Source: Thermococcus kodakarensis KOD1
GTDB taxonomy: Archaea > Methanobacteriota_B > Thermococci > Thermococcales > Thermococcaceae
NCBI RefSeq assembly: GCF_000009965.1
Contig: NC_006624.1
Location: 300,001-332,000, forward strand
Direction of reading: 5' to 3'
DNA: 32,000 nt
A program made the position numbers and the translations under genes. The notes beneath the pieces were generated by a model that was given only the letters and a program-made list of their open reading frames with translations, ran no database searches and was not told the DNA's origin. Positions 7,263-32,000 of this stretch are shown in pieces. Within the stretch, counting starts at the first letter, position 1; each line of letters begins with the position of its first letter.

Positions 7263-7339
7263 TGGAGCCGGGACCGGGATTTGAACCCGGGACCTGCGGA
7301 TTACGAGTCCGCCGCCCTGCCGAGCTAGGCTACCCCGGC
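7263..7339 (-). tRNA. tRNA-Thr (anticodon CGT), CCA encoded
   Basis: The minus strand reads GCCGGGG-TA-GCCT-AGCTCGGCA-GGGC-G-GCGGA-CTCGTAA-TCCGC-AGGTC-CCGGG-TTCAAAT-CCCGG-TCCCGGC-T-CCA. This is a complete cloverleaf with a 7-nt anticodon loop and CGT at positions 34-36. Confidence 0.9.
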
Positions 7340-16130: not shown

Positions 16131-16189
16131 GTCCCTCAGACAAGACCGATGTCGTCACCGTTCGGCCGGTTGATCCGTCATCATCGGAC
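16131..16189 (-). ncRNA. C/D box sRNA (2'-O-methylation guide)
   Basis: The minus strand reads GTCC-G-ATGATGA(C)-CGGATCAACCGG(12)-CCGA(D')-ACGG-TGACGA(C')-CATCGGTCTTGT(12)-CTGA(D)-GGGAC. This is the canonical archaeal architecture, with two 12-nt guides and a GTCC/GGAC terminal stem. It lies in an intergenic spacer. Confidence 0.8.
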
Positions 16190-20070: not shown

Positions 20071-20930
<860 letters not shown>

Positions 20931-20934
<4 letters not shown>

Positions 20935-21215
20935 GCGTTTGGGGCTGGCTTCTTGGGTTTCTCCTGCTCGGAGCGATACTCTCAATACTCTATGACATAC
21001 TCTTCAGGCCATGGAAGCTTGTCAGAGAAGGCATCAATGACTTGGAGAGGCAACTCAAGCTCTTGGACGGTCGCTTTGCGCGCCTACGCTCGTTCATCAT
21101 CGCTCCTTGGCTTTGGGGTGACGTGGAGCGGACGCGCACTTTCGTTTCTCACAAGCTCGCTCTGAAGCGGGCCGAGTTGGAGCTTTTTGAAAAGCTGAAG
21201 GGGGGTGGAGAATGA
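20931..21215 (+). CDS. Small membrane protein (N-terminal TM, C-terminal helical region)
   Basis: MSVWGWLLGFLLLGAILSILYDILF... ATG overlaps the int stop within GGGTGGAGAATGA. Confidence 0.5.
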
Positions 21216-21352
21216 ACCCGATTCAACTTATCTGGCTGTTTTTCGGCGGAGCGTTCGTAGTAGTGCTCTCCGCATTTGCCTATGAAGCCTTTATGGAGTG
21301 GCGGGAGGCTCGGAAATGGGCCGAGCGGTACAGCAAAGTCATGAAGAAATGA
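21212..21352 (+). CDS. Micro-ORF, 46-aa single-TM protein
   Basis: MNPIQLIWLFFGGAFVVVLSAFAYEAFMEWREARKWAERYSKVMKK. Below the track cutoff. The start overlaps the previous stop in the same GGGTGGAGAATGA junction. Confidence 0.4.
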   Translation: MNPIQLIWLFFGGAFVVVLSAFAYEAFMEWREARKWAERYSKVMKK

Positions 21353-21367
21353 AAGGAGGATGAGGTA

Positions 21368-21517
21368 GTGATTGACCTCATGCCTGCCCTCGACAAGGCC
21401 CTCTATCAAGCAAGTTGCTACACGATTTGTCTCACATTGACTTTCTTTTTCGTGCTGACACTTGTTATGGTTGCCCTCGTGTTCGTGCTGATCTATTTGA
21501 AAAAATGTAGGAGGTGA
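21368..21517 (+). CDS. Micro-ORF, 45-49-aa single-TM protein
   Basis: (VIDL)MPALDKALYQASCYTICLTLTFFFVLTLVMVALVFVLIYLKKCRR. GTG 21368 follows AGGAGGATGAGG, or ATG 21380. Its stop overlaps the SD region of the RHH gene. Confidence 0.35.
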   Translation: MIDLMPALDKALYQASCYTICLTLTFFFVLTLVMVALVFVLIYLKKCRR

Positions 21518-21525
21518 GCGGAGGA

Positions 21526-21702
21526 ATGGCCCAATCTAAGTTTGTTCGTGGAATATATATTGATTCGGAGGTTGAGAAAAGGGCAAAAGCCCTTGCCAAG
21601 GCCAAGGGAACGAGCATCAACCAGGTATTCAGAGAGGCGGTTCTGAAACTCTATCGGCTGGAACTAGGTAACACAAGGCCGGAGGAAATTCTTGAGGGCT
21701 GA
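21526..21702 (+). CDS. Ribbon-helix-helix (CopG/Arc-like) DNA-binding protein
   Basis: MAQSKFVRGIYIDSEVEKRAKALAKAKGTSINQVFREAVLKLY: beta strand, helix, G-T/S turn, helix. ATG follows GGAGGA. Confidence 0.7.
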   Translation: MAQSKFVRGIYIDSEVEKRAKALAKAKGTSINQVFREAVLKLYRLELGNTRPEEILEG

Positions 21703-21720
21703 CTTCTTTTTTACGCTTAA

Positions 21721-21732
21721 TTTAAGCTTAAA
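21721..21732. promoter_or_regulatory. Perfect 12-bp palindrome TTTAAGCTTAAA in an AT-rich spacer (candidate operator/promoter of the downstream module)
   Basis: Lies in the 142-nt spacer between the RHH gene (followed by a T-run at 21704-21713) and the first gene of the long module. A TTTTAAA box sits at ~21748. Confidence 0.3.
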
Positions 21733-21844
21733 ATGTTCTTATTTGCTTTTAAACTCCTCCTGCGACTTTTCTCTGGCGCCTTTGGGCCTTCCTCCGCTTA
21801 AATCAGTTCTCGTCAAATTGGCAAAGCCCTCCGGAGGCGGTAGT

Positions 21845-22021
21845 ATGGACGACCTAGATGGGATTTCTCGGGAGATTGAAACTCTCGATCGGTACGCTGA
21901 GCGTTTGAGGAGACAGATTGAGGCAGCGCAGAGGGAGCTCGCGCGAGTCACGAGGAAGAAGCAACAGCTCCTCGCAGAGGTTTCTAAGCTCAAAAAGGCG
22001 CGCAAGGTGATGGCAGTATGA
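21845..22021 (+). CDS. 58-aa coiled-coil protein
   Basis: MDDLDGISREIETLDRYAERLRRQIEAAQRELARVTRKKQQLLAEVSKLKKARKVMAV. ATG follows GGAGGCGG; the track start 21692 is a TTG extension through the spacer. Confidence 0.45.
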   Translation: MDDLDGISREIETLDRYAERLRRQIEAAQRELARVTRKKQQLLAEVSKLKKARKVMAV

Positions 22022-22371
22022 AGACAAAGAGCCTCATCCAGCTAATCATCTTCTTTGTGCTCGCGGGAGCGTGGTACTACATCGCTTGGCCCATGATGAC
22101 AAAGGAGGCTCTAGCGGTCGGAGCTGTTGGCGGCGTGCTCATGCATTGGGCGCTCACGAACAAGGGAAACAAGGCTTTAGTAATCATCGAGCCCTTTACA
22201 TCAAGCTGGCGCGTGCTCCTCTATGACATGATGCTCTTGAGCTTCCTGGCGGCACTCTGGCAGGCGAACGGTGCAGCTCTTCTCGACGCGCTCAAGGACT
22301 CTGTTGAGAACCTCGCGCTTCTGCTGGCCTTGCTCGGCGGCATTGGTGTTGACTACGGAGTGGAGGGATGA
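22018..22371 (+). CDS. Membrane protein, 117 aa (3-4 TM)
   Basis: ATGA overlap with the upstream gene. Hydrophobic helices LIQLIIFFVLAGAWYYIAW, AVGAVGGVLMHWAL, LLYDMMLLSFLAALW, LALLLALLGGIGV. Confidence 0.55.
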   Translation: MKTKSLIQLIIFFVLAGAWYYIAWPMMTKEALAVGAVGGVLMHWALTNKGNKALVIIEPFTSSWRVLLYDMMLLSFLAALWQANGAALLDALKDSVENLALLLALLGGIGVDYGVEG

Positions 22372-22375
22372 AGAG

Positions 22376-24262
22376 ATGAAGAAACTCGGTGTTTTGCTCG
22401 CTCTGTTGGTGCTGTTCGGAACGCTGGCAACGGGCACGGTTGGGGCTGTTTATATTCCGTCTAGTGGAGATTTCGGGGTGTATATCTTTGGGTCTTCGTC
22501 TAATGTAACAATATCGGACGGTCGGTTGGTCTTAGATGCTACGGGGTCTGAGTACGTCAGGGCTTGGCTTAATGTTACTGAGTTTCAGGCTATCGAGTTT
22601 GATTATCAGGCGTACGCAAATAACGTTTTATCTGGTGTGTCTTTTATGTCAGGGAGTTCAGGGGTTGGCTTAACTTTCATTGAGTATGATACGGGTTCAA
22701 TCGAGGTTAGGAAAATCTCAGGGGCTAATTATCCTCAGTATGATGGGAGTAGCGACACTATAGGTGGTTCTATTGATGCAGGGACGAGCTTTAGGAATAA
22801 GTACGTACATTTTAGAATTGAGTTTCAGCAGAGGGGCACGGAGTGGGATTTACTGGTATATAAGGACGGTTTCTTATTGTATAATCTGACGAATGTTCAG
22901 CAGCATATTGACCCGTTGTCAATCGAGAAGGTAGTTTTTGGTGTTCCGGCTGTAGGCATTGGTAATAACTTGGGCTGGCAGGGGAAGGTCGAGTTTAATA
23001 ATATACAGATTTATGAGGTTGAGTATCATATTCAGCTCTCGCTCAAGGATGCTCTGAGTAATCAACCCCTCACGGGCGTTACGGTGAAGGAGAACGGTAA
23101 CGTTATCGGCACGCTGGTCGATGGTGGAAGTTTAGATTTAACTAAGGGCACTCATACACTCACTTTCGAGAAAAGCGGGTACTGGAGCGTCACGAAGACG
23201 ATAGACGTCCAGGGTGACATGACTGTCAGTGTCGAGATGTACCCTGACAGCGCCGCCTTCAAGTTTGAAAACTTCCCGTCTGACATCAGCATTCCCGAGA
23301 ACACGATTTACACGCTCACTTTCACTCTCTCGCCGATCAGCACCGACGCGGCTTACAACACTTACCTGAGCCTGAGCGGCCTCTCCAACGTCCTCGAAGT
23401 CCAGAAAGACGGCCAGGCCGTCTCTCCCGAGTCGGGCAAGTACTATCTCGGCGACATTTCAGGCCCGACACAGATTTCCATCAAGTTCAAGGCGGGCGCG
23501 GTCGGCCAGCACGGGTTCACTCTGAGCTTTGAGAGTCATGACGCAATAATGAGCAAGACCTACACGACGACAAAGAGTGTCACCTACACCGTCGAGCCGC
23601 TCCCGTTTTCGGTTCAGATGCCCTCTGAATGGCAGGTCGGCCAGAATGAGCTTCGCATCTCGGAAAGCAGTGGCCAGAGTTACCTCATCACGGCGGTTCT
23701 GAAGGACAGCCAGGGCAACGAGGTTTGGAGTGATTCCCACGCCTTCAGCCCCTACGAGGCGTACTCCTTCAGCGTCAACGTGCCGAGTGAGGGCCAGTAC
23801 ACGCTCGAACTCCAGTGGAACGGCCAGGTCGCGACCTATGACGTCACCGTGAATCCTGCAATCACGCTCACCACGAAGCAGCTGACAGTCGAGAAGGGTG
23901 GCGAGGGCACGATTGTCCTCCACTTCAAGAACCCGTCGAGCGATGTGCAGTATTACACGATCAAGGTCTCGGGCGGCTTCCTGCCGAGCGAGATCAACCA
24001 GAGCATTTCGGTCGGCCCGCTCACCGAGAAGGATGTTAGCATAGCCTTCGCCGTGCCAGAAGACCTGACTTACGACGCCTACGAGCTCCAGGTGCAGGTT
24101 CTTCAGGGCAACGCGACGGTCTTCCAGGACAAGGTTGCCGTTAGCATTGGAGATTCTGGAGGGTTCACGCTCTTCGGCGGCTCAAGTGGGAACACCTGGC
24201 TCTGGCTCGGTGTTGGCGGGCTTGGGCTTCTCGCCTTAGTTGGACTTGCCAGGAGGAGGTGA
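22376..24262 (+). CDS. Large secreted multi-domain surface protein (628 aa): signal peptide, lectin/LamG-like jelly-roll, PEGA/CarboxypepD_reg-like domain, Ig/NEW3-like repeats, C-terminal TM anchor
   Basis: MKKLGVLLALLVLFGTLATGTVGA signal. YVHFRIEFQQRGTEWDLLVYKDGFLLYN (LamG-like). VTVKENGNVIGTLVDGGSLDLTKGTHTLTFEKSGYWSVTKTIDV (PEGA-like). GEGTIVLHFKNPSSDVQYYTIKVSG...YDAYELQVQV (NEW3-like). Ends WLWLGVGGLGLLALVGLARRR. The track start 22271 lies inside the upstream gene. Confidence 0.7.
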   Translation: MKKLGVLLALLVLFGTLATGTVGAVYIPSSGDFGVYIFGSSSNVTISDGRLVLDATGSEYVRAWLNVTEFQAIEFDYQAYANNVLSGVSFMSGSSGVGLTFIEYDTGSIEVRKISGANYPQYDGSSDTIGGSIDAGTSFRNKYVHFRIEFQQRGTEWDLLVYKDGFLLYNLTNVQQHIDPLSIEKVVFGVPAVGIGNNLGWQGKVEFNNIQIYEVEYHIQLSLKDALSNQPLTGVTVKENGNVIGTLVDGGSLDLTKGTHTLTFEKSGYWSVTKTIDVQGDMTVSVEMYPDSAAFKFENFPSDISIPENTIYTLTFTLSPISTDAAYNTYLSLSGLSNVLEVQKDGQAVSPESGKYYLGDISGPTQISIKFKAGAVGQHGFTLSFESHDAIMSKTYTTTKSVTYTVEPLPFSVQMPSEWQVGQNELRISESSGQSYLITAVLKDSQGNEVWSDSHAFSPYEAYSFSVNVPSEGQYTLELQWNGQVATYDVTVNPAITLTTKQLTVEKGGEGTIVLHFKNPSSDVQYYTIKVSGGFLPSEINQSISVGPLTEKDVSIAFAVPEDLTYDAYELQVQVLQGNATVFQDKVAVSIGDSGGFTLFGGSSGNTWLWLGVGGLGLLALVGLARRR

Positions 24263-24266
24263 GGTA

Positions 24267-26405
24267 ATGAGGCTCTTCTTTTCACTTTTTGAGCAGAAAG
24301 GAGGCGAGGAAGAAGAGCAGGAAAGGAAAACCTGTAATAGAAAAAAGCGCCTGTCAGGGTTACTGTTACTCCTCATTTTTACCACAAGCATCTATGCACA
24401 GCCAGCCCTAGCGTTTGACTTCGGCAGCTGGTGGAATGGTGTCAAAGAGAGGGCGAGCAACACCGGCAAAATGGTCGTCTCGACAGTAGTGGGTGTTGTC
24501 GTTGGCGGAGCATGCATGGCAGGGACCATGGGTTTCGGTACAGGTGCATGCGTTGCAATGGGAATGGCAGCCGCAGGTTTGACATATTCAGCGCTAGAAC
24601 TAGCGTTTGGAGGGTCTCGGGGTGGAGATAGTGACAGTGGTGCAACAATAACTTACGAGCGCCAAGCAAATGGAACTACCGTCAAAAACGATGACGATGA
24701 ACTCAATAAAGTCATAGACGACGCTAACCAGCAGACATATGAAGGGATTGCAGAGCTTACCGCGAAGCTCCGCTCTGATCTGGTGAGGTATGACACTAAG
24801 GAAGATGGAGCAACTGGCGACCTCTGGATTGAGATCTATGCTCCCTCAAAGATCTATGGCTTTTCAGCTTTCCCCGTCCAGGCTAAACTCTACACAAAAG
24901 AGAGCAACATACCATTTAACGTCATACACCTTCGCAGTGTTGAGATCTATCTTCAGAAGGAGAACAGTAGCGTCCCGCTCTGGAAGCGCGTTTGGGATTA
25001 CGGAACTGGTAGCGAGGGCCTAAACGGCCAAAGTGTGGTTTATTCAACAATTCTCAAGGTTCCGGACGATTGGGTCTACCAGGTGCAGAACGCTATTCAA
25101 ACCGGTCAGGTCACTAGAGACTTGATCGAACAGATATTCAGCGCGAACACTTCAACGTGGGAGATCTTCGTTAAGGTTGACGCTTACCGTGAGGTCTGGC
25201 AGAACGACCCGCAGTACACTGATCAGTCATCCTGTACTGCTCAACCTAACCATAAGTGGGACTCAAACACCTCTACGTGCTACGTCTTCGTTAGGAATGA
25301 TGACATTAAGTATACTGCTTACACCACCAGCGCCTGGCGGCACGTGAGCATGGCCCACGACATCGCCGATCTTGCAGATGGTTTCTATGCATCTCTACCA
25401 GTTAAGTTCCTCAATACTGAAGCCTCAACGAAATGGGCGCTTTATCAGGAGAAGTACGCTGGAGCGCTCTCAAACTTCATTATACTGACCTTTGCGACTC
25501 CAGTTCATGTCATTGGTTCAACAGCAGACTACAAGTTCTATATTGTGCCTAATCCAGGCTATTTTGAGCCTCTTAATCCGTCCTTCAATGACGACTTCAG
25601 GTTCGTAGCAGTGAGAGAGTACAAGGATCTAAGCTGGACAGTTGCAGATTCAATATTTGGAAACCTCGGCACGATGAGTCCGGACACTCCAACTCAAAAG
25701 CTCCTGACAGCCCACTACACTGAAGACCTGAGCACGTTAACCTATAAGGTCTATGGACTGGCTTACTTCACGATCACGAGAGATGACAATATCACAATAC
25801 CGCTCTGGCTTGTTGTCAATCCGAAGGTCTCTGTTATCCCGAACACAAGGACAGTGTTGGCGGATAATCAGATAGACCAGCTCGTTCAGTTTACTGACGA
25901 TGGCAAGCTCGAAGCGAGTGAGATCAATCAGACTAAAGCGATCGCAGCCAGCCTCATTAACGGTCTCCAGGAGAAGATCACTGCCGCCGAGGATCTCAAG
26001 AAGAAGGCAGACGCCGAGGGCAATGAAAAGGCTTCCCTCTACGCTGAGAAAGCGATACAGGCATACCAGGATGCCATTGAGGCTCTCAACAAAATTACAC
26101 AGACCGATGCTGTCCAAGAGTACCTCAACTGGCTAAACGTTGCCAAAAAGCTTGAGCAGGCCGGAGACTTCTACATGAGCGCGGCTGAGAAGGCGCTCTA
26201 CGGCGAGTACGAACAGGCCGAACTTGACGCACAGAAGGGTGATGAGCTGAGTCAGCTTGCCGATGAGTACAAGCCACACATTGACATCCTAACAACTGCA
26301 AAGAGCATGCTGAGTAAGAAGATTCTCGGAATTCCACTTTGGGCGCTTCTCGCAATAGTGTTCGTGTTAGTTGGCGCTTTCGTGGTTTGGAGAAAACTGC
26401 TTTGA
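24267..26405 (+). CDS. Large membrane-anchored protein (712 aa): charged N-tail, signal/TM, glycine-zipper hydrophobic region, ~500-aa ectodomain, helical/coiled-coil stalk, C-terminal TM
   Basis: LSGLLLLLIFTTSIYAQPALA. VVGVVVGGACMAGTMGFGTGACVAMGMAAAG. C-terminal AEDLKKKADAEGNEKASLYAEKAIQAYQDAIEALNK... and IPLWALLAIVFVLVGAFVVWRKLL. ATG 24267 follows GGAGGAGGTGAGG. Confidence 0.7.
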   Translation: MRLFFSLFEQKGGEEEEQERKTCNRKKRLSGLLLLLIFTTSIYAQPALAFDFGSWWNGVKERASNTGKMVVSTVVGVVVGGACMAGTMGFGTGACVAMGMAAAGLTYSALELAFGGSRGGDSDSGATITYERQANGTTVKNDDDELNKVIDDANQQTYEGIAELTAKLRSDLVRYDTKEDGATGDLWIEIYAPSKIYGFSAFPVQAKLYTKESNIPFNVIHLRSVEIYLQKENSSVPLWKRVWDYGTGSEGLNGQSVVYSTILKVPDDWVYQVQNAIQTGQVTRDLIEQIFSANTSTWEIFVKVDAYREVWQNDPQYTDQSSCTAQPNHKWDSNTSTCYVFVRNDDIKYTAYTTSAWRHVSMAHDIADLADGFYASLPVKFLNTEASTKWALYQEKYAGALSNFIILTFATPVHVIGSTADYKFYIVPNPGYFEPLNPSFNDDFRFVAVREYKDLSWTVADSIFGNLGTMSPDTPTQKLLTAHYTEDLSTLTYKVYGLAYFTITRDDNITIPLWLVVNPKVSVIPNTRTVLADNQIDQLVQFTDDGKLEASEINQTKAIAASLINGLQEKITAAEDLKKKADAEGNEKASLYAEKAIQAYQDAIEALNKITQTDAVQEYLNWLNVAKKLEQAGDFYMSAAEKALYGEYEQAELDAQKGDELSQLADEYKPHIDILTTAKSMLSKKILGIPLWALLAIVFVLVGAFVVWRKLL

Positions 26406-26419
26406 GGTGGTGATTGAAG

Positions 26420-26941
26420 ATGGGGGAGGAACAACAACCAAAAAAACTGAAGGCCGGGCAATGGGCCTTAAAGACGGCCCTAGCCTCGGGCTTTCTTGGT
26501 TTACTTTTGTGGTATGCAGGACAACACAGCATAACAGTACAGCAGACAACAGAAGCAATGGCATCGGTGCCGCTGGCATTCGTAGTGCTCGTTGAACTCT
26601 TCGATAAGCTCGCAGATAAGAACGACTACTACAACAAGCTCTACGCGGGAATCTACGGCTCAATAGGCAAAAAGAAGAGCAGAGTAGGTGCAATCCTCAT
26701 CAGTTTGCTCTTCGCAGCGCTCGGAATGCTAGGGGTCATGTGGGCAATCACAGGAACCATGACGCTCAACATCGGCGATGTCGGGCCAGCAAATCTTTTC
26801 GTCTCCGGATTGATCGGCCTATACATCTTCGCTCCAGAGACTGGCAACAATGAGCTGATACTTTGGTTCTGGACCGCCGCAACGATCGCCACAAAAGGTG
26901 CATTCATTTCAATACTTCCACACATCCCCGGGCTGATCTGA
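26420..26941 (+). CDS. Polytopic membrane protein, 173 aa
   Basis: ATG follows GAGGTGGTGA. Helices ALASGFLGLLLWYA, ASVPLAFVVLVELF, VGAILISLLFAALGMLGVMWAI, LFVSGLIGLYIFA, LILWFWTAATIA. Confidence 0.6.
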   Translation: MGEEQQPKKLKAGQWALKTALASGFLGLLLWYAGQHSITVQQTTEAMASVPLAFVVLVELFDKLADKNDYYNKLYAGIYGSIGKKKSRVGAILISLLFAALGMLGVMWAITGTMTLNIGDVGPANLFVSGLIGLYIFAPETGNNELILWFWTAATIATKGAFISILPHIPGLI

Positions 26942-26952
26942 GGTGACTGACA

Positions 26953-27288
26953 ATGCTCGGCAGGGTTGCAGCAGCTCTCATCGCTTACCTCCTTTGCATT
27001 TTCCACTTCCAGAACAGCATGGTTACAGCAGGCAACCTCCTCGGCCTCAGTGGCTTTTGGGCGCTCTTCATTCCCTCGGCCCTCATAGGGCTCGCAGTGT
27101 ACAGAATCAGCGACCTAGACAGTTGGGGACTTTGGGACGCGGCGGCATTCCTTATCCTCGGCGGAATCTTCATGCTGGCGATTACCGGCGATCCAACAGC
27201 AACGGCCCTGGAATTCATTAAGGGAGTCACGGGCTTCGGCTTAGCTGGCGTTCTGGCAGGATTAGCAGCAAAGAACAGGAGGGATTGA
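26953..27288 (+). CDS. Polytopic membrane protein, 111 aa (about 4 TM)
   Basis: ATG follows GAGGTGA; almost entirely hydrophobic (VAAALIAYLLCIF, LSGFWALFIPSALIGLAVY, AAAFLILGGIFMLAI, FGLAGVLAGLAA). Confidence 0.6.
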   Translation: MLGRVAAALIAYLLCIFHFQNSMVTAGNLLGLSGFWALFIPSALIGLAVYRISDLDSWGLWDAAAFLILGGIFMLAITGDPTATALEFIKGVTGFGLAGVLAGLAAKNRRD

Positions 27289-27289
27289 C

Positions 27290-27520
27290 ATGGACGCGAA
27301 CAGCATCATTGATCAGCTCCACAACCTTGCAGGAAGCCACCCATACCTCGCGCTCGGCCTAATCCTCATCCTCATCGGCGTACTGACAAAAGGCAAGGTG
27401 AGCCTGGTGTTCTACGCTCTCGGCGCTCTCGCGCTCCTCAAAGAGTTTGGCCTCGTGGACACTTTCTTTTCTTTCCTGAAACAGATTCCAGAACTTGTTA
27501 AGTCGTTTGGAGGTGTTTGA
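27290..27520 (+). CDS. 76-aa two-helix hairpin membrane protein
   Basis: Starts 1 nt after the previous stop. PYLALGLILILIGVL-TKGK-VSLVFYALGALALL gives two TM helices joined by a short basic loop. Confidence 0.55.
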   Translation: MDANSIIDQLHNLAGSHPYLALGLILILIGVLTKGKVSLVFYALGALALLKEFGLVDTFFSFLKQIPELVKSFGGV

Positions 27521-27523
27521 GAA

Positions 27524-28327
27524 ATGAGAAAGAAAGAGAGACAGATCATAACCGTTGGCCTGATACTACTCTTCGCCGCCATCGGCTGGTGGGCCTATCA
27601 CGGCGGCGGAGGCGGCTTCGTTGACATAACCAACGCTCTGAGTGGCAACAGTACCAGCACCACGACCTATGAGCTCGCCGTCAGCAACCTTCTGGCTACA
27701 GTTGACCAGGCGACCGGCCACGTCCTCGTGAGCTTCCAGTTAGCAAACGAGGAGCACTTCAACATATCCAGCGTTCAGATCCTCTACGCGCTCAACGTCG
27801 CCGATCCAAATAACGCGACCTACACTGCCCTGAACGCTACAGCCGAGAACGGCACTTACAAGGCAGAAATCCCCTCTAAGTTCGGAGATGTGGTTTACTA
27901 CAAGATCAAAGTTTCCTACAACGCTGGAAAGACCCTCGAAAGCGATGTCAAGAGCATAACTGTCAAGGACACGGCCGCTCCAACTCTGAATTCAGTTAGC
28001 ATCAACTATAACAGTACGGCTGGAACTTTCAGCATTGACTTCAACGCGACCGATAACGACGCCATAGCGACCTACTACGTCTATTATGCTGATCTCGGTA
28101 CTAGCAGCACCGTGAGCAATACTACCACCTTCACCGCAGTCAACGCGACCAGCCTTCCAGTTGTCATCAGCAACGTCACGGCGAACAACTACTATGCGTT
28201 CTACTTCGTGGTCGAGGACATCAGCGGCAACAAGGCCATGCTCTACAACGAGACCAGCCCGTACATCGTCCAGGCCAATGCGACCGCTACTTGGCCGGTT
28301 GTTGTGACCGAGCAGAGCTCTAGTTGA
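27524..28327 (+). CDS. Membrane-anchored extracellular protein (267 aa), beta-rich, very rich in N-x-S/T sequons
   Basis: N-terminal anchor IITVGLILLFAAIGWWAY then GGGGG. At least 12 sequons are visible (NST, NIS, NAT x5, NGT, NST, NTT, NVT, NET). ATG follows GGAGGTG. Confidence 0.65.
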   Translation: MRKKERQIITVGLILLFAAIGWWAYHGGGGGFVDITNALSGNSTSTTTYELAVSNLLATVDQATGHVLVSFQLANEEHFNISSVQILYALNVADPNNATYTALNATAENGTYKAEIPSKFGDVVYYKIKVSYNAGKTLESDVKSITVKDTAAPTLNSVSINYNSTAGTFSIDFNATDNDAIATYYVYYADLGTSSTVSNTTTFTAVNATSLPVVISNVTANNYYAFYFVVEDISGNKAMLYNETSPYIVQANATATWPVVVTEQSSS

Positions 28328-28338
28328 GGTGGGCTGAA

Positions 28339-28821
28339 ATGTACGCCCACCACTCTTCCCCATCTTTTTCAAAAGTCGTTTTGAGACTCTTCGCAGTGGT
28401 TAGCCTAATTTTTTTGGCTTATTTCAGCTATTCGACGTTCGCCGAGCACGACCCACTAAAAGAAAGACTGTATAAGCTAGGTTATCCGACTGAGGGATTC
28501 ATCTTCAGCAACAACACAATACGGTGGGCTGACGGACACCTCACGATAGTCCAGGGGGCCTATGTTGAGGACTATCCAATCACTGCCGAGCAGGCGTACG
28601 AGATCGCTCGGCAGTATCTAGCCAGCTACAACAAGAAGCTGGAGAAGTACAACTACAAGCTCTACCCTGACAAGAAGACGCTGACAGAGAAGGAAAAGAA
28701 CGGTCAAAAATATTGGGTTTTCGAGCTGAAGCTCGATACTGGTGGTTCTAAGCTCTTTGCTGGCTTCATTTGGGTGAACCGGAAGACGGGAGCGGTTTCA
28801 GTGAAGGGCCTCTTGGGGTGA
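28339..28821 (+). CDS. Membrane-anchored protein with PepSY-like C-terminal domain (160 aa)
   Basis: Anchor VVLRLFAVVSLIFLAYFSY. AEQAYEIARQYLASY...KYWVFELKL...FIWVNRKTGAVSVKG fits the PepSY pattern. ATG follows GAGGTGGG. Confidence 0.55.
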   Translation: MYAHHSSPSFSKVVLRLFAVVSLIFLAYFSYSTFAEHDPLKERLYKLGYPTEGFIFSNNTIRWADGHLTIVQGAYVEDYPITAEQAYEIARQYLASYNKKLEKYNYKLYPDKKTLTEKEKNGQKYWVFELKLDTGGSKLFAGFIWVNRKTGAVSVKGLLG

Positions 28822-28826
28822 GAAGA

Positions 28827-29294
28827 ATGAAGTTCATGGGTATGAAGTCATATATTCATATATTATATATGATAGTAGTCCTCGCGGCGGTTGTGAGTAC
28901 CGCAGGGTGCATTGGTTGGGGTGGCGGTGGAATCATAATCGGCTTTGGCAACGAGACCTACACAATCCCACTTAACACCTCTAACAGCACAAACTCCACA
29001 ATCCCAACTTCGGAACTCACCATACACAGGTACGAGGAGCTGGTTTACGTTGGCGGAAACCTGACGATCCAGGAGCTGAACCTGACAATTAGGCCCGACT
29101 ACGACCCCAACAAGGGCAAGTTCTTCTTCATATTCCCGGATACGATCTATTGGGAGCCGATGAACGTCACTATCAACAACATAACAATAATTGGGACTGG
29201 CTACTTCACGGGCACGACGTACTACATCGCCAACATCACGATTCTGAGTCCTGAAAAGTTGACGGTCATCGTAAACAACCCGGAGGGACAGTGA
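28827..29294 (+). CDS. Putative lipoprotein/secreted glycoprotein (155 aa)
   Basis: Signal MKSYIHILYMIVVLAAVVSTAGC has a lipobox-like TAGC followed by a Gly run. At least 9 N-x-S/T sequons (NET, NTS, NST, NST, NLT x2, NVT, NIT x2). Confidence 0.6.
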   Translation: MKFMGMKSYIHILYMIVVLAAVVSTAGCIGWGGGGIIIGFGNETYTIPLNTSNSTNSTIPTSELTIHRYEELVYVGGNLTIQELNLTIRPDYDPNKGKFFFIFPDTIYWEPMNVTINNITIIGTGYFTGTTYYIANITILSPEKLTVIVNNPEGQ

Positions 29295-29295
29295 T

Positions 29296-30096
29296 ATGAA
29301 GCGGCTGGTTTTCGCCTTTATCCTGTTCCTGCTGACTGCCAGCCTCGCGTCAGCAGGGACTCTCTACGACTGGAGCGGGAGCCTCGAAGTTGGCCAGGCC
29401 GTTTACGTCAATGACCTCACCCTGTTCGTTGACCAACACGCCAAGACGAACGAGATCGTTCTCGTTGTTAAACAGGCCCGTCAGATACTGAAGGTTCTCC
29501 ACAATGGTGAGAACTATACCGCTGAGGGCCTGGAGGTTATTTTTACGACCTTCAACGACAGGGCATACATTCAGGTTCAGGGGAGTGATCCCTTCTCGGT
29601 GAGTTTCAACGGACCGGATAAGGCCGCTGAACTGAGGAAAGAGAATATAGAATTGAGAGAAAAGCTGGCGAACCTTACCGTTCAGAACAACAAGCTCGCG
29701 AAAGAAAACGAACAGCTCAAGCAGCAGGTTTCAGAGCTTCAGAGCAAGCTCAAGAACCAGCCCAACACAGCCGAGCTGAACGCAAAGATTCTGAACCTGA
29801 CGAGGGAAAATCGCGAGCTCAAGGCACAGTTAGCGAACCTGACAAATCAATACAACACCGTAAAGGCCAGGGCTGATTTTCTCGAACAGCAGAACGACGA
29901 GTACAGGAAGATGATTCAGACCCTTCTTGAGGGGGCCTCGCAGAAGAGCGAGCAGAGCTACATAGAGAAGGCGAAAAAAGAGAAGCTAATCGGTTCAGTT
30001 CTCTTGAAAACGCTCCTCTTCGGCGGGATAATCGTCGGGCTGGTGGGGTATGGCCTGTACAGGGCAAAGAGGAGGCATGACTTTGCAGGCCTCTAA
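29296..30096 (+). CDS. Secreted coiled-coil protein with C-terminal TM anchor (266 aa)
   Basis: Signal MKRLVFAFILFLLTASLASA, a ~90-aa beta domain, then ~110 aa of heptad-like sequence with an internal repeat (ENIELREKLANLTVQNNKL / ENRELKAQLANLTNQYNTV). Ends LLFGGIIVGLVGYGLYRAKRRH. Confidence 0.65.
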   Translation: MKRLVFAFILFLLTASLASAGTLYDWSGSLEVGQAVYVNDLTLFVDQHAKTNEIVLVVKQARQILKVLHNGENYTAEGLEVIFTTFNDRAYIQVQGSDPFSVSFNGPDKAAELRKENIELREKLANLTVQNNKLAKENEQLKQQVSELQSKLKNQPNTAELNAKILNLTRENRELKAQLANLTNQYNTVKARADFLEQQNDEYRKMIQTLLEGASQKSEQSYIEKAKKEKLIGSVLLKTLLFGGIIVGLVGYGLYRAKRRHDFAGL

Positions 30097-30140
30097 CTCA
30101 CTCAATTGTAAAAGGAAGTATGGGGGGCTGATGGAAAAAT

Positions 30141-30183
30141 AAAGCTCGCTGAGTTGAGCTTTTACGGGAGATAGTAGTTTTTT
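30141..30183 (+). terminator. Hairpin plus T6 run between the coiled-coil gene and the ATPase gene
   Basis: AAAGCTC-GCTGAGTT-GAGCTTT (30141-30162), then TTTTTT at 30178-30183. This is the only sizeable spacer (133 nt) in the module. Confidence 0.35.
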
Positions 30184-30229
30184 GTTGTAATCAAAGAAAA
30201 TCGGGAACAAAAAAGGAGGTTCGGGATAG

Positions 30230-31693
30230 ATGGCAGTCTCGACGCGAGCCGCGTCCCCTGCAGAGGTGAACATTCCCCACTTCAACCCAGCCAGCGGGCC
30301 GTACCTCGGCAGGCTCATGAGCACGAACAGGAAAGAGAAGCTCTACCTGCCGCTCAAGGTCGGTGAGGCAAACCACATCTTCATCCTCGGAAAGACAGGC
30401 TACGGGAAGACCAGCTTCATGAAAGCCCTCGCCGAGGCCCTGTGGGAGTACTACACCAGCAGGGGACAGGAAGTCCTCATTGTGATCTTTGAGAGAAAAT
30501 ATGACTACTCAAAGTTCCAGCGCCTGAAGGCGTTTTGGAACAAGCGCGTTGAAGAGCTCGGGAAAGAAGAAGCCACCAGAGTGCACCCGTACCTCGCGGC
30601 ATACTTCGGAACCCTTGAGAAGTACCCACAGCTCAAAAGCCAGCTCGGCTTTCCCGGCGACTTTGCAATGAGCATTCCCAACTACATCCTCGCCGAGACG
30701 TACGTGACTAGAAAGCCGTATCCAATTGACGTCTTTACCTGGCACGGCCTACAACCCGACAGCTTCCCGACCAGGAGGATAGTCTTCAGGCCGACCAGGG
30801 CACCAGAAGCAATCAAGCTCGACAACGGTGGTGGAAAGGTCGAGGTTGCAATCGGCAGGATTCACCTGAGAGACATCAGCTTTGAGATGCTCGCGCGGAA
30901 GTTTGACATCCCAAAGGGCACGGCCTACGGCAGGATCCTGAGGAAGTACTGGAAAGTGTACAAGATCCACGACCCTGACGAGATTCTGAGGAGAGTCAAA
31001 GCTGAAGAGCCCTCAATGCGCGAGAGCACTTACGAGAGCCTCAAGAGCATCCTCGACGAGATCAGAGCTGACCCGCTCTACCTGAAAGGCTCAGTCCTCA
31101 AGCCGAAGGCTGAGCAGGTCACTAGAAGCGGAAATGGCATCTATGATGAGCCTAAGCCCTTCACGGACTACCTCACGACCAAAGCCATCAACATCATTGA
31201 TTTTTCAGATAACTCCGAGCTAGACCTCGAGGAGCAGCGCCTAATCATGTACCTGCTCTGGCAGAAGATTAAGCTCATCGCTGGCAGGAAGCGCGTTGAT
31301 GTGTGGCTCTTCTTCGACGAGATTCAGGACCTCATAGGCACGGCAGGCGAGGCCAGCCGCCACAACCTTGCCTGGAAGGCAATGGAGGAAATCTATAGGA
31401 AGGGCCGCTCCCTCTCGGTGAACGTCGTCGCGGGCACACAGTACCTCTACAAGCTGCCAATGAGCCTCATAATGGGTGCCGCCCACATTGCGGTAATCGG
31501 AGCCCTAGCCAGTCCAAAGGATCTCGACATTCTTCGCGTTGCGATAATGGACGGCGAGCGGCTGAGGATTCCAGTCGAGCACGACAGCTTTGAGGAGTTT
31601 CTGAAGCGCCGCAAGAAGAAAGGCCGCGGCTGGTTCTCGTTTGACCGCGAGTTTACCGTCAAGATGTATTTTCGCCCTAATCAAAGCTTTTGA
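30230..31693 (+). CDS. P-loop NTPase of the FtsK/HerA/VirB4-VirD4 class (487 aa)
   Basis: Walker A FILGKTGYGKTS (aa 51-62). Walker B VWLFFDEIQD (D363/E364) lies ~300 aa later. YRKGRSLSVNVVAGTQ is the arginine/glutamine sensor region typical of this clade. ATG follows AGGAGGT. Confidence 0.8.
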   Translation: MAVSTRAASPAEVNIPHFNPASGPYLGRLMSTNRKEKLYLPLKVGEANHIFILGKTGYGKTSFMKALAEALWEYYTSRGQEVLIVIFERKYDYSKFQRLKAFWNKRVEELGKEEATRVHPYLAAYFGTLEKYPQLKSQLGFPGDFAMSIPNYILAETYVTRKPYPIDVFTWHGLQPDSFPTRRIVFRPTRAPEAIKLDNGGGKVEVAIGRIHLRDISFEMLARKFDIPKGTAYGRILRKYWKVYKIHDPDEILRRVKAEEPSMRESTYESLKSILDEIRADPLYLKGSVLKPKAEQVTRSGNGIYDEPKPFTDYLTTKAINIIDFSDNSELDLEEQRLIMYLLWQKIKLIAGRKRVDVWLFFDEIQDLIGTAGEASRHNLAWKAMEEIYRKGRSLSVNVVAGTQYLYKLPMSLIMGAAHIAVIGALASPKDLDILRVAIMDGERLRIPVEHDSFEEFLKRRKKKGRGWFSFDREFTVKMYFRPNQSF

Positions 31694-31699
31694 GAGGTG

Positions 31700-32000
31700 A
31701 TGAAGATGGTGTGGCCGTTTGGAAGGAAAAAGAAGAAGGCCGAACCGAGGCCCGGGATAGTAATGACAGATGACCAGTTCGCCGAACTCGTCCGCCTGGA
31801 CGACTTCAGCCTTGAGGAGAAAGTAGAGCAGAGAGTCGAGGAGCGCCTGAGGCAACAGAGAATACTCGCGCAGAGAATGAGCCAGATTAAGGAAACCTAT
31901 CAGAAACTCCTTGTCGCAGTCACGCCCGAGGAGGGGAGCATTATACTTGGCTTCCCCGAGGCTTACCTCATAAACTACGATGAGTACTGGATTTACTATC
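31700..32000 (+). CDS. Hypothetical protein, N-terminal part (runs off the window)
   Basis: GAGGTG then ATG 31700. MKMVWPFGRKKKKAEPRPGIVMTDDQFAELVRLDDFSLEEKVEQRVEERLRQQRILAQRM... is open to the window end. Not in the ORF track because no stop is reached. Confidence 0.5.
   Translation, partial: MKMVWPFGRKKKKAEPRPGIVMTDDQFAELVRLDDFSLEEKVEQRVEERLRQQRILAQRMSQIKETYQKLLVAVTPEEGSIILGFPEAYLINYDEYWIYY

What the first reader, a model, noticed from the sequence alone, without database searches (positions are those of the whole stretch)
21845..31693. Translationally coupled one-strand module of ten membrane/secreted proteins and a coiled-coil protein, followed by a HerA/VirB4-class ATPase: candidate uncharacterised envelope machine
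Eleven consecutive plus-strand ORFs (21845-30096) are joined by junctions of -4 to +14 nt. Nearly every start is preceded by GGAGG/GAGGTG. Ten of the eleven carry a signal peptide, lipobox or TM helices; the eleventh is a 58-aa coiled coil. After a single 133-nt spacer the same strand continues with a 487-aa P-loop ATPase and another ORF. Apart from the ATPase I see no catalytic motif and no similarity to known pilus, archaellum, secretion, capsid or S-layer proteins. The composition is two very large surface-exposed proteins, three small polytopic proteins, several anchored glycoprotein-like proteins, a coiled-coil stalk protein and a DNA-translocase-class ATPase, all carried on an integrating element. 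That fits a cell-envelope apparatus for DNA transfer (conjugation-like), or for building a membrane-derived particle or vesicle. From memory, the conserved core of the pT26-2 / TKV2 / TKV3 / PHV1 family in Thermococcales and Methanococcales is exactly such a block of unknown function. If so, the mechanism is still undescribed.
Basis: partly seen in the sequence, partly recalled or inferred. Interest (0 to 1): 0.85.

Follow-up and report, generated by a model that had tools for sequence, protein, structure and literature searches.

The report
Known pT26-2-family core module (TKV2)
The block is real, but it is the already published conserved "core module" of the integrated plasmid TKV2 of Thermococcus kodakarensis (pT26-2 family): membrane and surface proteins plus a DNA-pump-type ATPase, thought to move DNA between cells, with a function nobody has yet shown.

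Summary
Twelve co-oriented ORFs (21845-31693) have junctions of -4 to +14 nt, then one 133-nt spacer. All are preceded by GGAGG/GAGGTG-type sites. Ten of the first eleven products carry hydrophobic segments.

The window is Thermococcus kodakarensis KOD1, element TKV2 (TK0383-TK0394). The block is the published "highly conserved region" of the pT26-2 plasmid family (Soler 2010; Badel 2019). Gene order matches pT26-2 gene for gene. g4 is an orthologue of t26-6p (Pfam T26-6p domains; PDB 2WB7, E 3.5e-136).

What I add:
- The ATPase family is tiny and isolated within the FtsK-HerA superfamily. It is structurally closest to HerA and is not a VirB4, CedB or VirD4 member.
- No T4SS, pilus, capsid or phage family matches any membrane protein.
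- The genes are intact and under purifying selection (dN/dS 0.04-0.34).
- The large protein g3 has a conserved ~410-aa stalk and a cassette-like, hypervariable head. g8 and g11 also vary most at their distal ends.

Best reading: an element-encoded DNA-transfer envelope apparatus unrelated to T4SS. The mechanism is unproven.

Novelty: already known. Interest: moderate to low.

The parts
20071..20934 (+). Left border of TKV2. C-terminal fragment of an SSV-type integrase whose first codons are the reverse complement of a tRNA 3' half (the att site).
   Evidence: Pfam Phage_integr_3, E 4.8e-61. The N-terminus MLAGPAGFEPATSGLEG is tRNA-derived. 68% identical to the pT26-2 integrase t26-1p.
21526..21702 (+). 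Small ribbon-helix-helix (CopG-like) protein, t26-2p homologue; a likely regulator.
   Evidence: 74% identical to t26-2p. The Pfam RHH_1 hit is weak, E 0.0046.
21703..21844 (+). AT-rich intergenic region upstream of g1 with a T-run and TTAAAT / TTTAAGC TATA-like elements; candidate promoter of the membrane-protein operon (inferred).
   Evidence: Read directly from the sequence. No transcript mapping was available.
21845..22021 (+). g1 (TK0383 by accession arithmetic; t26-3p homologue), 58-aa coiled-coil protein without a membrane segment.
   Evidence: Only weak coiled-coil family hits. 76% identical to t26-3p.
22018..22371 (+). g2 (TK0384; t26-4p homologue), small membrane protein read as polytopic.
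   Evidence: hydrophobic N-terminal segment; further stretches seen by eye. Homologues are also found in Methanococcales (38% in pMEFER01).
22376..24262 (+). g3 (TK0385; t26-5p homologue, core gene). Signal peptide; hypervariable head (about residues 25-215); conserved CarboxypepD_reg/PEGA plus Ig-like stalk (219-600); C-terminal membrane anchor ending in RRR.
24267..26405 (+). g4 (TK0386; t26-6p homologue, core gene). Variable N-terminal membrane/glycine-zipper part; three-domain ectodomain of known structure; C-terminal anchor.
   Evidence: Pfam PF22092, PF22265 and PF20984 with E 1e-59 to 1e-73. PDB 2WB7, E 3.5e-136. N-terminus not conserved across the family.
26420..26941 (+). g5 (TK0387; t26-7p homologue, core gene). 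Membrane protein with several hydrophobic stretches (read as about four helices) and invariant E59, D62, K63 and a P-E-T-G-x-x-E motif.
   Evidence: No match to any solved structure.
26953..27288 (+). g6 (TK0388; t26-8p homologue), small protein with four hydrophobic segments.
   Evidence: 35-36% identical homologues in Methanococcales elements.
27290..27520 (+). g7 (TK0389; t26-9p homologue), 76-aa protein with two hydrophobic helices read as a hairpin.
27524..28327 (+). g8 (TK0390; t26-10p homologue). N-terminally anchored protein rich in N-glycosylation sequons (12). The proximal half is conserved and the distal half is variable.
28339..28821 (+). g9 (TK0391; t26-11p homologue, core gene). 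N-terminal anchor plus a conserved ~120-aa extracellular domain.
   Evidence: The PepSY hit is weak, E 0.019. No match to solved structures.
28827..29294 (+). g10 (TK0392). Lipobox-like anchor and 9 sequons. It occupies a variable slot of the module.
   Evidence: Absent from pT26-2 and replaced by a 461-aa g3-like protein in L014.
29296..30096 (+). g11 (TK0393; t26-13p homologue, core gene). Signal peptide; variable distal domain; ~120-aa coiled coil; C-terminal anchor.
   Evidence: (TIGR04211 SH3_and_anchor, below cut-off).
30097..30229 (+). Spacer between the membrane-protein genes and the ATPase gene. A spacer of 127-166 nt is kept in all the family members I measured. It contains a T-run (TAGTTTTTTGTT) and AAAATAAAGC; probably a terminator/promoter junction (inferred).
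   Evidence: No significant RNA structure. No Rfam match.
30230..31693 (+). g12 (TK0394; t26-14p homologue, core gene). Soluble P-loop ATPase of the FtsK-HerA superfamily without a HAS-barrel domain.
31706..32000 (+). g13, 5' part (TK0395; t26-15p homologue, core gene; 250 aa in full). Soluble protein with a lysine-rich N-terminus. It starts 12 nt after the ATPase gene; fold unresolved.

Best explanation
**Identity (shown).** This is the conserved core module of TKV2, an integrated plasmid of the pT26-2 family in Thermococcus kodakarensis KOD1.

**Mechanism (inferred).** The module builds an element-encoded envelope apparatus that moves the element's DNA out of the carrier cell and into other cells.
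- A hexameric FtsK-HerA-superfamily motor (g12) acts on the cytoplasmic side, probably with the always-adjacent soluble protein g13. It pumps DNA through a channel.
- The channel is made of the small membrane proteins g2, g5, g6 and g7.
- The membrane-anchored glycoproteins g3, g4 and g8 to g11 form the extracellular part that crosses the S-layer.
- The exchangeable head of g3, and the variable tips of g8 and g11, select the partner cell.

I lean slightly towards contact-dependent, conjugation-like delivery by a machine that is not homologous to type IV secretion.
For: **Identity.**
- Exact matches to KOD1 proteins.
- Gene-for-gene synteny with pT26-2, pGE2, pMEFER01 and further loci.
- t26-6p-specific Pfam domains and the 2WB7 structure match g4.
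- Split SSV-type integrase at the element border.

**The module is functional.**
- All ORFs are intact in 12 related loci.
- dN/dS is 0.04-0.34 wherever dS is computable.
- Nine of the genes are detectable by BLASTP in Methanococcales elements.
- Transcripts of TK0394-TK0410 are present in wild type (PMC8155482).
- What I take to be the homologous locus of M. thermolithotrophicus (its third gene is the t26-6p homologue) is highly expressed under nitrogen-fixation stress (PMC9765008).

**The motor is a DNA-pump type.**
- Pfam DUF87/HerA hit above threshold.
- AF2 model with pLDDT 78.6 and pTM 0.81.
- All top-50 PDB fold matches are HerA-clade hexameric DNA translocases, E about 1e-9.
- The nearest sequence outgroups are HerA, FtsK, VirB4-like (AAA_10) and TraG/VirD4-type ATPases, which I know as DNA translocases.

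**Surface recognition.**
- The g3 stalk has 62% median pairwise identity. Its heads fall into at least 23 unrelated classes.
- Among pairs whose stalks are more than 80% identical, 95% have heads less than 30% identical.
- The distal parts of g8 and g11 are the least conserved parts of those proteins.
- Identities across the module are mosaic between elements.

**Mobility of the family.** CRISPR spacers against family members are widespread, and the authors propose a DNA/protein transfer role (Badel 2019).
Against: - No experiment shows transfer, and no component is homologous to a proven transfer protein.
- There is no relaxase, VirD4 or VirB4 signature. MOB-suite types pT26-2, pGE2 and pMEFER01 as non-mobilizable.
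- In T. gammatolerans shotgun proteomics, only three proteins of the related element tgv1 (Tg0665-Tg0667) were detected; none is among the core-module homologues (PMC2718504).
- The core is retained in integrated copies that have lost replication genes. Deleting TKV2 or TKV3 slows growth (Badel 2019 citing Tagashira 2013). That could point to a host-beneficial, non-transfer role.
- Assigning a channel role to g2, g5, g6 and g7 is pure inference from topology.
- HerA-type ATPases also work in repair and defence complexes.
Confidence: 0.42

Rival explanations
1. **Vesicle or capsid-less virus model.** The membrane proteins are incorporated into budding membrane vesicles that enclose the excised element. 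g3 and g4 act as spikes for attachment and fusion. The ATPase loads or condenses the DNA. The particles infect new cells, as described for plasmid pR1SE of Halorubrum; I would add pleolipoviruses from my own knowledge.
For: - g3 has the layout I associate with a viral spike: a hypervariable distal head on a conserved stalk with a C-terminal anchor.
- The proteins are many, anchored and rich in glycosylation sequons.
- The integrase is of the SSV type.
- The ATPase has partial fold matches to A32/FtsK-type viral packaging ATPases and one full-length match to an unnamed viral protein, A0A5Q2W8D8. It also hits a PHROG of unknown function, E 2.7e-32.
- Badel 2019 notes the resemblance to pR1SE and that Thermococcales vesicles carry DNA.
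- The related locus is induced by stress, together with CRISPR-Cas up-regulation, in M. thermolithotrophicus.
Against: - No homologue was found in 50,697 phage/virus records for g3, g4 or g12, nor in IMG/VR for the ATPase.
- No capsid or other PHROG match for any membrane protein.
- I found no report of pT26-2-family particles in the papers I could read.
- A DNA pump is not obviously needed to enclose cytoplasmic DNA in an outward bud (inference).
- The ATPase is a full-size HerA-like protein, not a minimal A32-like packaging enzyme.
Confidence: 0.3
2. **Host-beneficial surface or secretion system that does not move DNA.** The module builds an adhesion, cell-cell interaction or protein-export structure that benefits the host, and is kept for that reason.
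For: - The core is conserved in integrated copies that lost replication functions, and TKV2/TKV3 deletions slow growth (Badel 2019).
- Carbohydrate-binding-type heads occur in a few g3 homologues (DUF2341, CBM_35, GH2 galactose-binding-like).
- Purifying selection acts on all genes.
Against: - Every relative of the ATPase that I could classify belongs to families I know as DNA translocases, not protein-export ATPases.
- The module was found only on pT26-2-type elements in every locus I retrieved, and Badel 2019 likewise treats it as specific to this family.
- Cassette-like head replacement and mosaicism fit arms-race or recognition evolution of mobile elements better than a housekeeping structure.
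Confidence: 0.15
3. **Two unrelated modules.** g12 and g13 are a HerA-type ATPase-effector pair used for defence or exclusion against competing elements, or for processing the element's DNA. The surface proteins serve superinfection exclusion.
For: - The best fold and profile matches of g12 include HerA partners of the anti-phage systems SIR2-HerA, DUF4297-HerA, TdpAB and DndH. PADLOC gives mad8 at E 4e-15 plus HerA models.
- A conserved 127-166-nt spacer separates g12 and g13 from the membrane genes.
- g13 always directly follows g12.
Against: - g13 matches no nuclease or effector family.
- g12 lacks the N-terminal HAS-barrel, which from my knowledge of HerA is the partner-docking domain.
- g12 and g13 are strictly syntenic with the membrane genes across two archaeal orders.
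- No curated defence model is met. The matches are superfamily-level only.
Confidence: 0.07
4. **Decaying remnant.** The block is what is left of an extinct virus or plasmid and has no current function.
For: - TKV2 is integrated through a 'suicidal' split integrase, and an inversion with TKV3 has mixed the att sites (Badel 2019).
- Low protein detection in T. gammatolerans.
Against: - No frameshifts or truncations in the window, and orthologues are intact in 12 loci.
- dN/dS is 0.04-0.34.
- All ribosome-binding sites and the tight gene coupling are preserved.
- The locus is transcribed.
Confidence: 0.02

Closest known systems
Core module ('highly conserved region', t26-4p to t26-15p) of the pT26-2 plasmid family: pT26-2, TKV2, TKV3, TGV1, PHV1, pGE2, pMEFER01 (Soler et al. 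2010; Badel et al. 2019)
   Same: It is this module. The window is TKV2 itself. Order and orientation of all genes are the same. All seven defining core genes are present. g4 carries the t26-6p domains and matches structure 2WB7. The border has the same integrase type and integration mode.
   Different: Nothing essential differs. Relative to pT26-2, TKV2 has an extra gene (g10) in a variable slot where pT26-2 has the reverse-strand t26-12. Its ATPase has a 20-30-residue N-terminal extension and an internal insertion. The g3 head and the g4 N-terminus are of different sequence types.
Type IV secretion / conjugation machines and their archaeal derivatives (Ced, Ted; pT33-3 of Thermococcus)
   Same: The logic is the same: a membrane-protein operon plus an FtsK-HerA-superfamily ATPase on a mobile element. 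Small two-helix and multi-helix membrane proteins are present, as with VirB2/VirB3/VirB6 or CedA/A1/A2.
   Different: - The ATPase does not meet VirB4, CedB or TraG models: CedB scores 16.9 bits against a cut-off of 700, and no AAA_10 or CagE_TrbE_VirB hit was listed at E up to 0.1. Its best fold matches are HerA.
- No VirD4-like protein or relaxase was found. pT33-3, in contrast, encodes recognisable VirB4- and VirD4-like proteins.
- g5 and g9 family profiles match no T4SS structure.
- The single weak TrbC/VirB2 hit on g4 (E 0.03) lies in a region that is not conserved in the family.
HerA hexameric DNA translocases (HerA-NurA repair complex; SIR2-HerA, DUF4297-HerA and TdpAB defence complexes)
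   Same: Best structural matches, E about 1e-9 and TM 0.43-0.5 over the whole chain. DUF87 domain present. Walker A, Walker B and arginine-finger-region motifs conserved. A conserved partner gene lies immediately downstream.
   Different: 10-14% sequence identity. No N-terminal HAS-barrel. The partner g13 has no detectable nuclease or Sir2 fold. The gene always sits next to a ten-gene membrane-protein operon on a plasmid.
Infectious plasmid vesicles (pR1SE of Halorubrum lacusprofundi) and, from my own knowledge, pleolipoviruses
   Same: The gene content is analogous: many element-encoded membrane proteins. By my recollection of pleolipoviruses, a large anchored spike-like glycoprotein with a variable distal part and an NTPase are also shared. 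Badel 2019 already drew the analogy with pR1SE.
   Different: Badel 2019 reports no sequence similarity with pR1SE. I found no match in virus collections or PHROGs for the membrane proteins. No particles have been reported for this family in the papers I could read.
Packaging vertex of internal-membrane viruses (PRD1-type: FtsK/A32-like ATPase plus small integral membrane proteins); comparison drawn from my own knowledge of PRD1
   Same: An FtsK-HerA-superfamily ATPase working with small membrane proteins to pass dsDNA across a lipid bilayer. There are partial fold matches to A32-like ATPases.
   Different: No jelly-roll capsid protein candidate. Such ATPases had been found only in viruses with jelly-roll capsids (Makarova 2014). 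g12 is about twice the size of the A32-like enzymes matched.

Membership tests
pT26-2 plasmid family core module | Homologues of the seven core genes t26-5p, 6p, 7p, 11p, 13p, 14p and 15p | tested here: met
   BLASTP of window genes against pT26-2 ORFs: g3 59%, g4 39%, g5 42%, g9 72%, g11 45%, g12 37%, g13 35%.
pT26-2 plasmid family core module | Conserved synteny of the ~12-gene region (t26-4p to t26-15p), all on one strand | tested here: met
   The order g2 to g13 equals t26-4 to t26-15. The same order is found in pGE2, pMEFER01 and loci L008-L016.
pT26-2 plasmid family core module | t26-6p three-domain ectodomain (Pfam PF22092, PF22265, PF20984; PDB 2WB7) | tested here: met
   E 4.8e-72, 4.2e-59 and 1.7e-73. 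2WB7 E 3.5e-136 over residues 138-670.
pT26-2 plasmid family core module | In Thermococcales: SSV-type integrase split by integration into a tRNA gene | tested here: met
   Phage_integr_3 E 4.8e-61. The ORF starts with a tRNA 3'-half sequence and lacks about 70 N-terminal residues relative to t26-1p. The other element end is outside the window.
Type IV secretion / conjugation (including Ced and Ted) | VirB4-family ATPase | tested here: not met
   No CagE_TrbE_VirB or AAA_10 hit was listed at E up to 0.1 in the Pfam scan, and these families are absent from the precomputed Pfam lists of the homologues. NCBIfam CedB scores 16.9 bits against a cut-off of 700. The top 50 fold matches are all HerA-clade. 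Only superfamily-level relatedness.
Type IV secretion / conjugation (including Ced and Ted) | Coupling protein (VirD4/TraG) and relaxase | tested here: not met
   No such Pfam domain in the window or in the genes downstream in TKV2 and pT26-2, including t26-18p. PLSDB/MOB-suite types the three free plasmids as non-mobilizable. Archaeal conjugative plasmids also lack known relaxases, so this row carries less weight.
Type IV secretion / conjugation (including Ced and Ted) | VirB2-like pilin, VirB6-like channel, VirB8-like or VirB3-like proteins | tested here: inconclusive
HerA clade of the FtsK-HerA superfamily | P-loop core with Walker A, Walker B and arginine finger; DUF87 domain | tested here: met
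   Motifs invariant across four orthologues. DUF87 42.3 bits against a cut-off of 23.2.
HerA clade of the FtsK-HerA superfamily | Overall fold similarity to HerA | tested here: met
   Foldseek against PDB: TdpA, D. radiodurans, T. kodakarensis and S. solfataricus HerA, and SIR2-HerA, E 1.7e-9 to 1e-6, TM 0.4-0.5. TM values are moderate.
HerA clade of the FtsK-HerA superfamily | N-terminal HAS-barrel domain and a NurA-type nuclease partner | tested here: not met
   Walker A starts at residue 54 after a disordered N-terminus. The partner g13 has no nuclease signature. Its AF2 model is too poor to judge.
Membrane-containing or pleomorphic archaeal viruses | Capsid or spike proteins, or a packaging ATPase, homologous to those of known viruses | tested here: not met
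   PHROGs: no hit for the ten membrane proteins apart from one insignificant match on g8. tblastn against 50,697 virus records: none for g3, g4 or g12. IMG/VR: no relative of the ATPase. BFVD: only partial A32-like matches plus one unnamed full-length match.
Plasmid-vesicle elements (pR1SE type) | Element proteins and DNA present in released infectious vesicles | not testable with these tools
   Needs vesicle purification, proteomics and infection assays. The only link is the analogy drawn by Badel 2019.

The most novel reading that the evidence does not exclude
The pT26-2 core encodes a DNA-transfer vehicle that is evolutionarily independent of type IV secretion and of all known virions. It would be either a new kind of conjugation pore or an infectious, capsid-less membrane particle. 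It is driven by an isolated branch of FtsK-HerA motors. Recipient range is set by cassette-like replacement of the g3 head domain, in the way phages exchange receptor-binding domains.
Probability: 0.5. Interest if true: 0.8.

Novelty: already known. Interest (0 to 1): 0.33.

Why it matters
- The pT26-2 family sits in about a third of sequenced Thermococcales genomes and nearly half of Methanococcales genomes (Badel 2019). Its core module has had no assigned function since it was first described.
- If it is a DNA-transfer machine unrelated to T4SS, it would be a new route of horizontal gene transfer in hyperthermophilic archaea, and a possible gene-delivery tool.
- T. kodakarensis is genetically tractable, so the question can be tested directly.
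- As a scan finding, however, this is a rediscovery. The locus, its gene content and both functional hypotheses are published.
- The modest additions here give concrete mutants and predictions, but no answer:
  - the isolation of the ATPase family;
  - the failure of every T4SS and virus membership test;
  - purifying selection on all genes;
  - the swappable head of g3.

Tried and rejected
1. **g4 N-terminus as a VirB2/TrbC-like pilin.** The Pfam hit had E 0.03. Rejected because the glycine-zipper region is missing from the orthologues in L009, L010 and pMEFER01.
2. **Homology of g5 and g9 families to T4SS or any solved structure.** Profile search against PDB sequences found nothing better than E 0.2.
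3. **g13 as a NurA-like or other nuclease partner.**
   - Only close homologues were found.
   - The AF2 model was poor (pLDDT 53.9).
   - Profile search against PDB and family-wide Pfam scans gave nothing.
   - Foldseek on the poor model returned mostly PRC-barrel proteins at non-significant E-values of 0.05 or worse. I keep this only as a hint.
4. **Viral origin.** No matches in the phage collection or in IMG/VR. No PHROG match for the membrane proteins.
5. **Defence system.** PADLOC gave only superfamily-level HerA/mad8 hits for g12 and coiled-coil noise for g11.
6. **DNA-import (competence) role.** I found no support. A transposon screen in M. maripaludis did not implicate such genes. An 80-kb region that the authors suspected to be a virus or other mobile element made no difference to transformation. 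Whether that region holds a pT26-2-type element is unknown.
7. **Structured RNA in the 133-nt spacer.** z-score -0.57 and no Rfam hit.
9. **Genome-contig scan.** It returned only six loci and not KOD1 itself, perhaps because the source region is masked.

Full report
**1. The observation**

Re-deriving ORFs and start sites gives twelve consecutive + strand genes.
- g1 to g11 span 21845-30096, with junctions of -4, +4, +4, +14, +11, +1, +3, +11, +5 and +1 nt.
- A 133-nt spacer follows, then g12 (30230-31693, 487 aa).
- Twelve nucleotides later a thirteenth gene starts and runs off the window.
- Each start is preceded by a GGAGG, GAGGTG or AGGTGA-type site.
- Gene calls made by others on identical DNA in public assemblies give the same product lengths and no opposite-strand genes.

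A hydropathy scan shows hydrophobic segments in g2 to g11.
- g3 and g11 have a signal-like N-terminus and a C-terminal anchor.
- g4 has N-terminal membrane segments and a C-terminal anchor.
- g2, g5, g6 and g7 are small proteins with more than one hydrophobic stretch, which I read as polytopic.
- g8, g9 and g10 have a single N-terminal anchor.
- g8 and g10 carry 12 and 9 N-X-S/T sequons.
- g1 is a 58-aa protein with no hydrophobic segment and only weak coiled-coil family hits.

**2. What it is**

- Pfam finds three family-specific domains in g4: T26-6p Ig-like 1, T26-6p Ig-like 2 and PT26-6P helical, with E 1e-59 to 1e-73.
- g4 matches the only solved structure of that family, 2WB7, at E 3.5e-136.
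- tblastn of g4 against plasmids finds only pT26-2 (Thermococcus sp. 26/2), pGE2 (Pyrococcus abyssi) and pMEFER01 (Methanocaldococcus fervens).
- The annotated pT26-2 record shows the same gene string, t26-3 to t26-15.
- Exact-sequence look-ups identify g3, g4, g11 and g12 as BAD84574, BAD84575, BAD84582 and BAD84583 of Thermococcus kodakarensis KOD1. By accession arithmetic these are TK0385, TK0386, TK0393 and TK0394. That agrees with a paper naming TK0394 inside TKV2, which spans TK0381-TK0421.
- The paralogues from TKV3 fall in the same 90% identity clusters.
- At 20071-20934 lies the C-terminal part of an SSV-type integrase. Its first codons are a tRNA 3' half, which is the signature of integration by this integrase type.

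The window therefore holds host DNA up to about 20070 and the left half of TKV2 after that.

**3. What is already published**

- Soler et al. 2010 and Badel et al. 2019 describe exactly this block. They call it the highly conserved region of the pT26-2 family: twelve syntenic genes, seven of them core genes shared with Methanococcales.
- They report that nine of the proteins have transmembrane helices. The ATPase resembles VirB4, HerA and the STIV2 B204 ATPase by Phyre2. No homologues exist outside the family.
- They propose a new DNA or protein secretion system, conjugation, or spread by vesicles as for pR1SE.
- Later papers that I could read still treat the family as plasmids of unknown transfer mode.

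**4. Evidence that the module is functional**

From twelve related loci I extracted orthologues.
- The gene order is kept throughout.
- g2, g3, g4, g5, g6, g9, g11, g12 and g13 are detectable by BLASTP even in pMEFER01 and in Methanothermococcus sp. Ax23. That is two more genes than the seven listed core genes.
- No orthologue shows a disrupted frame.
- dN/dS against the closest relatives is 0.04-0.34 wherever dS is not saturated.
- Identities are mosaic. In locus L008 the ATPase is 90% identical but g4 only 34%. This indicates recombination inside the module.

Expression evidence is mixed.
- TK0394-TK0410 transcripts are present in wild-type cells.
- A locus of M. thermolithotrophicus, which I take to be the homologous element because its third gene is the structurally characterised t26-6p homologue, is highly expressed under nitrogen-fixation stress.
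- In T. gammatolerans, shotgun proteomics detected only three proteins of the related element tgv1 (Tg0665-Tg0667), none of them a core-module homologue.

Together these suggest conditional expression.

**5. The ATPase**

- g12 has invariant Walker A and Walker B motifs and a GRS...GTQ motif. It passes the Pfam DUF87 (HerA central domain) threshold.
- A profile of 24 family members searched against PDB sequences hits HerA best, at E 5e-6.
- The AF2 model has pLDDT 78.6 and pTM 0.81.
- Its 50 best PDB fold matches are all HerA-clade proteins: TdpA, HerA of D. radiodurans, T. kodakarensis and S. solfataricus, SIR2-HerA, DUF4297-HerA and the DndH C-domain. E values are about 1e-9, TM 0.4-0.5, and identity 10-14%.
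- There is no HAS-barrel. The P-loop starts at residue 54 after a disordered tail.
- Curated models for CedB and anti-phage HerA are missed by a wide margin. No VirB4-type Pfam family was listed.
- Against viral models there are partial matches to A32-like packaging ATPases and one full-length match to an unnamed protein.
- An exhaustive profile search of 1.84 billion cluster representatives finds only 14 proteins at E 1e-30 or better, about eleven of them full length. Scores then drop sharply, and the remaining hits are far weaker.
- Nine of the ten nearest weaker hits I scanned are a mixture of HerA, FtsK, AAA_10 and TraG/VirD4 proteins; one had no Pfam match.

The family is thus a small, isolated branch of the DNA-pumping FtsK-HerA superfamily. 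HerA is the nearest fold, and VirB4 membership is not met.

**6. The membrane and surface proteins**

- Apart from the t26-6p domains, only generic CarboxypepD_reg/PEGA and Ig-like hits (g3) and coiled-coil noise (g1, g11) appear in Pfam, NCBIfam, PHROGs and PADLOC.
- Family profiles of g5 and g9 match no solved structure.
- The weak TrbC/VirB2 hit in the g4 N-terminus lies in a region absent from several orthologues.
- No VirD4, TraG or relaxase domain is found in neighbouring genes.

The most informative pattern I found concerns g3.
- Among 54 homologues, the C-terminal ~410 residues (stalk plus anchor) have 62% median pairwise identity.
- The N-terminal head (184-335 residues) has 13% median identity and falls into at least 23 unrelated sequence classes.
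- Among pairs whose stalks are more than 80% identical, 95% have heads below 30% identity.
- A few heads carry carbohydrate-binding-type domains.

The same polarity appears in two other proteins.
- g8: the anchor and proximal half are 61-69% identical; the distal half is 36%.
- g11: anchor 55%, coiled coil 48%, distal domain 24%; coiled-coil length ranges from 98 to 197 residues.

Badel 2019 never uses the word 'N-terminal', so this head variability may not have been described. It is the pattern I would expect for receptor-binding or mating-adhesin proteins of mobile elements.

**7. The partner gene g13**

- It follows the ATPase gene by 12 nt in TKV2 and directly follows it in every locus examined.
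- It is soluble, has a lysine-rich N-terminus and is highly conserved.
- No family or structure match was found.
- The AF2 model was poor. Its fold matches, mostly PRC-barrel proteins, are not significant.
- Its role stays open.

**8. Mechanism**

Shown:
- The module belongs to a mobile plasmid family.
- It is intact and under purifying selection.
- It encodes an envelope-located set of proteins and a DNA-pump-type ATPase.
- Its outward-facing parts diversify by domain replacement.

Inferred:
- The ATPase, probably with g13, drives DNA through a channel of small membrane proteins.
- The anchored glycoproteins span the S-layer and choose the partner cell.

I cannot separate contact-dependent delivery from packaging into infectious vesicles. 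I lean slightly to the former for three reasons.
- A membrane-crossing pump and four kinds of small membrane proteins fit a translocon better than a bud.
- No particles have been reported in the papers I could read.
- No virus collection holds homologues.

A host-beneficial non-DNA role, a separate HerA-type defence pair and a decaying remnant are less likely. The reasons are listed under the rival explanations.

**9. Verdict**

The finding is real and correctly interpreted, but already known. It is the core module of TKV2 of the pT26-2 family, and its function remains an open published question. The additions here are the ATPase placement, the negative membership tests, the selection data and the g3 head cassettes. 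They sharpen the experiments but do not settle the mechanism.

Noticed in passing
window 22376-24262 (g3) and its 54 homologues in alignment A3: The N-terminal ~190-330 residues form at least 23 unrelated sequence classes on a conserved ~410-aa stalk. The TKV2 head groups with only one other homologue (P0117). The pattern looks like cassette exchange of a recognition domain.
   Followed up: yes
window 30097-30229 and the equivalent spacers in L001 and L006-L016: A non-coding spacer of 127-166 nt between the t26-13p-like and ATPase genes is kept in all the family members I measured, including those of Methanococcales. Within the TKV2-like subgroup its sequence is conserved (T-run TAGTTTTTTGTT; AAAATAAAGC). 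No RNA structure signal or Rfam match.
   Followed up: partly
L014 (ENA contig k141_194901) 11181-15429: The variable region of this pT26-2-type element carries a type IV CRISPR-Cas set (Csf1, a RAMP protein, Csf3), plus DpdA and a PAPS-reductase-like gene.
   Followed up: no
L014 1668-3053: In the slot that holds g10 in TKV2, this element has a 461-aa protein sharing 41% identity over 187 residues with g3. The slot accepts different surface proteins. pT26-2 has a reverse-strand gene there.
   Followed up: partly
window 31706-32000 and L002 1893-2645 (g13, TK0395): The low-confidence AF2 model gives a run of PRC-barrel proteins (RimM, reaction-centre H subunit, CdpB1/2, CdvA) as its best but non-significant fold matches. 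No sequence-level support.
   Followed up: partly
window 21213-21353 and 21369-21512, + strand: Two very small ORFs (about 46-47 aa) with hydrophobic stretches lie between the integrase fragment and the RHH gene, next to a 94-aa membrane ORF (20931-21215). I read them by eye from the sequence and did not analyse them.
   Followed up: no
window 16134-16188 (-) and 7263-7339 (-): Host region: a C/D-box sRNA (Rfam sR14, 52.7 bits) and tRNA-Thr(CGT).
   Followed up: no
window 30230-31693 (g12): PHROG 7035 (unknown function, profile length 969) matches residues 168-448 at E 2.7e-32, although no record in the phage collection matches by tblastn. Which viruses or prophages make up this PHROG could not be seen.
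   Followed up: partly
homologue list of g3: P0112, P0115: Two close g3 homologues are labelled as coming from a Chloroflexi MAG and a Thermoproteota MAG. This is probably mis-binning of hydrothermal contigs, but it would matter for the claimed host range.
   Followed up: no
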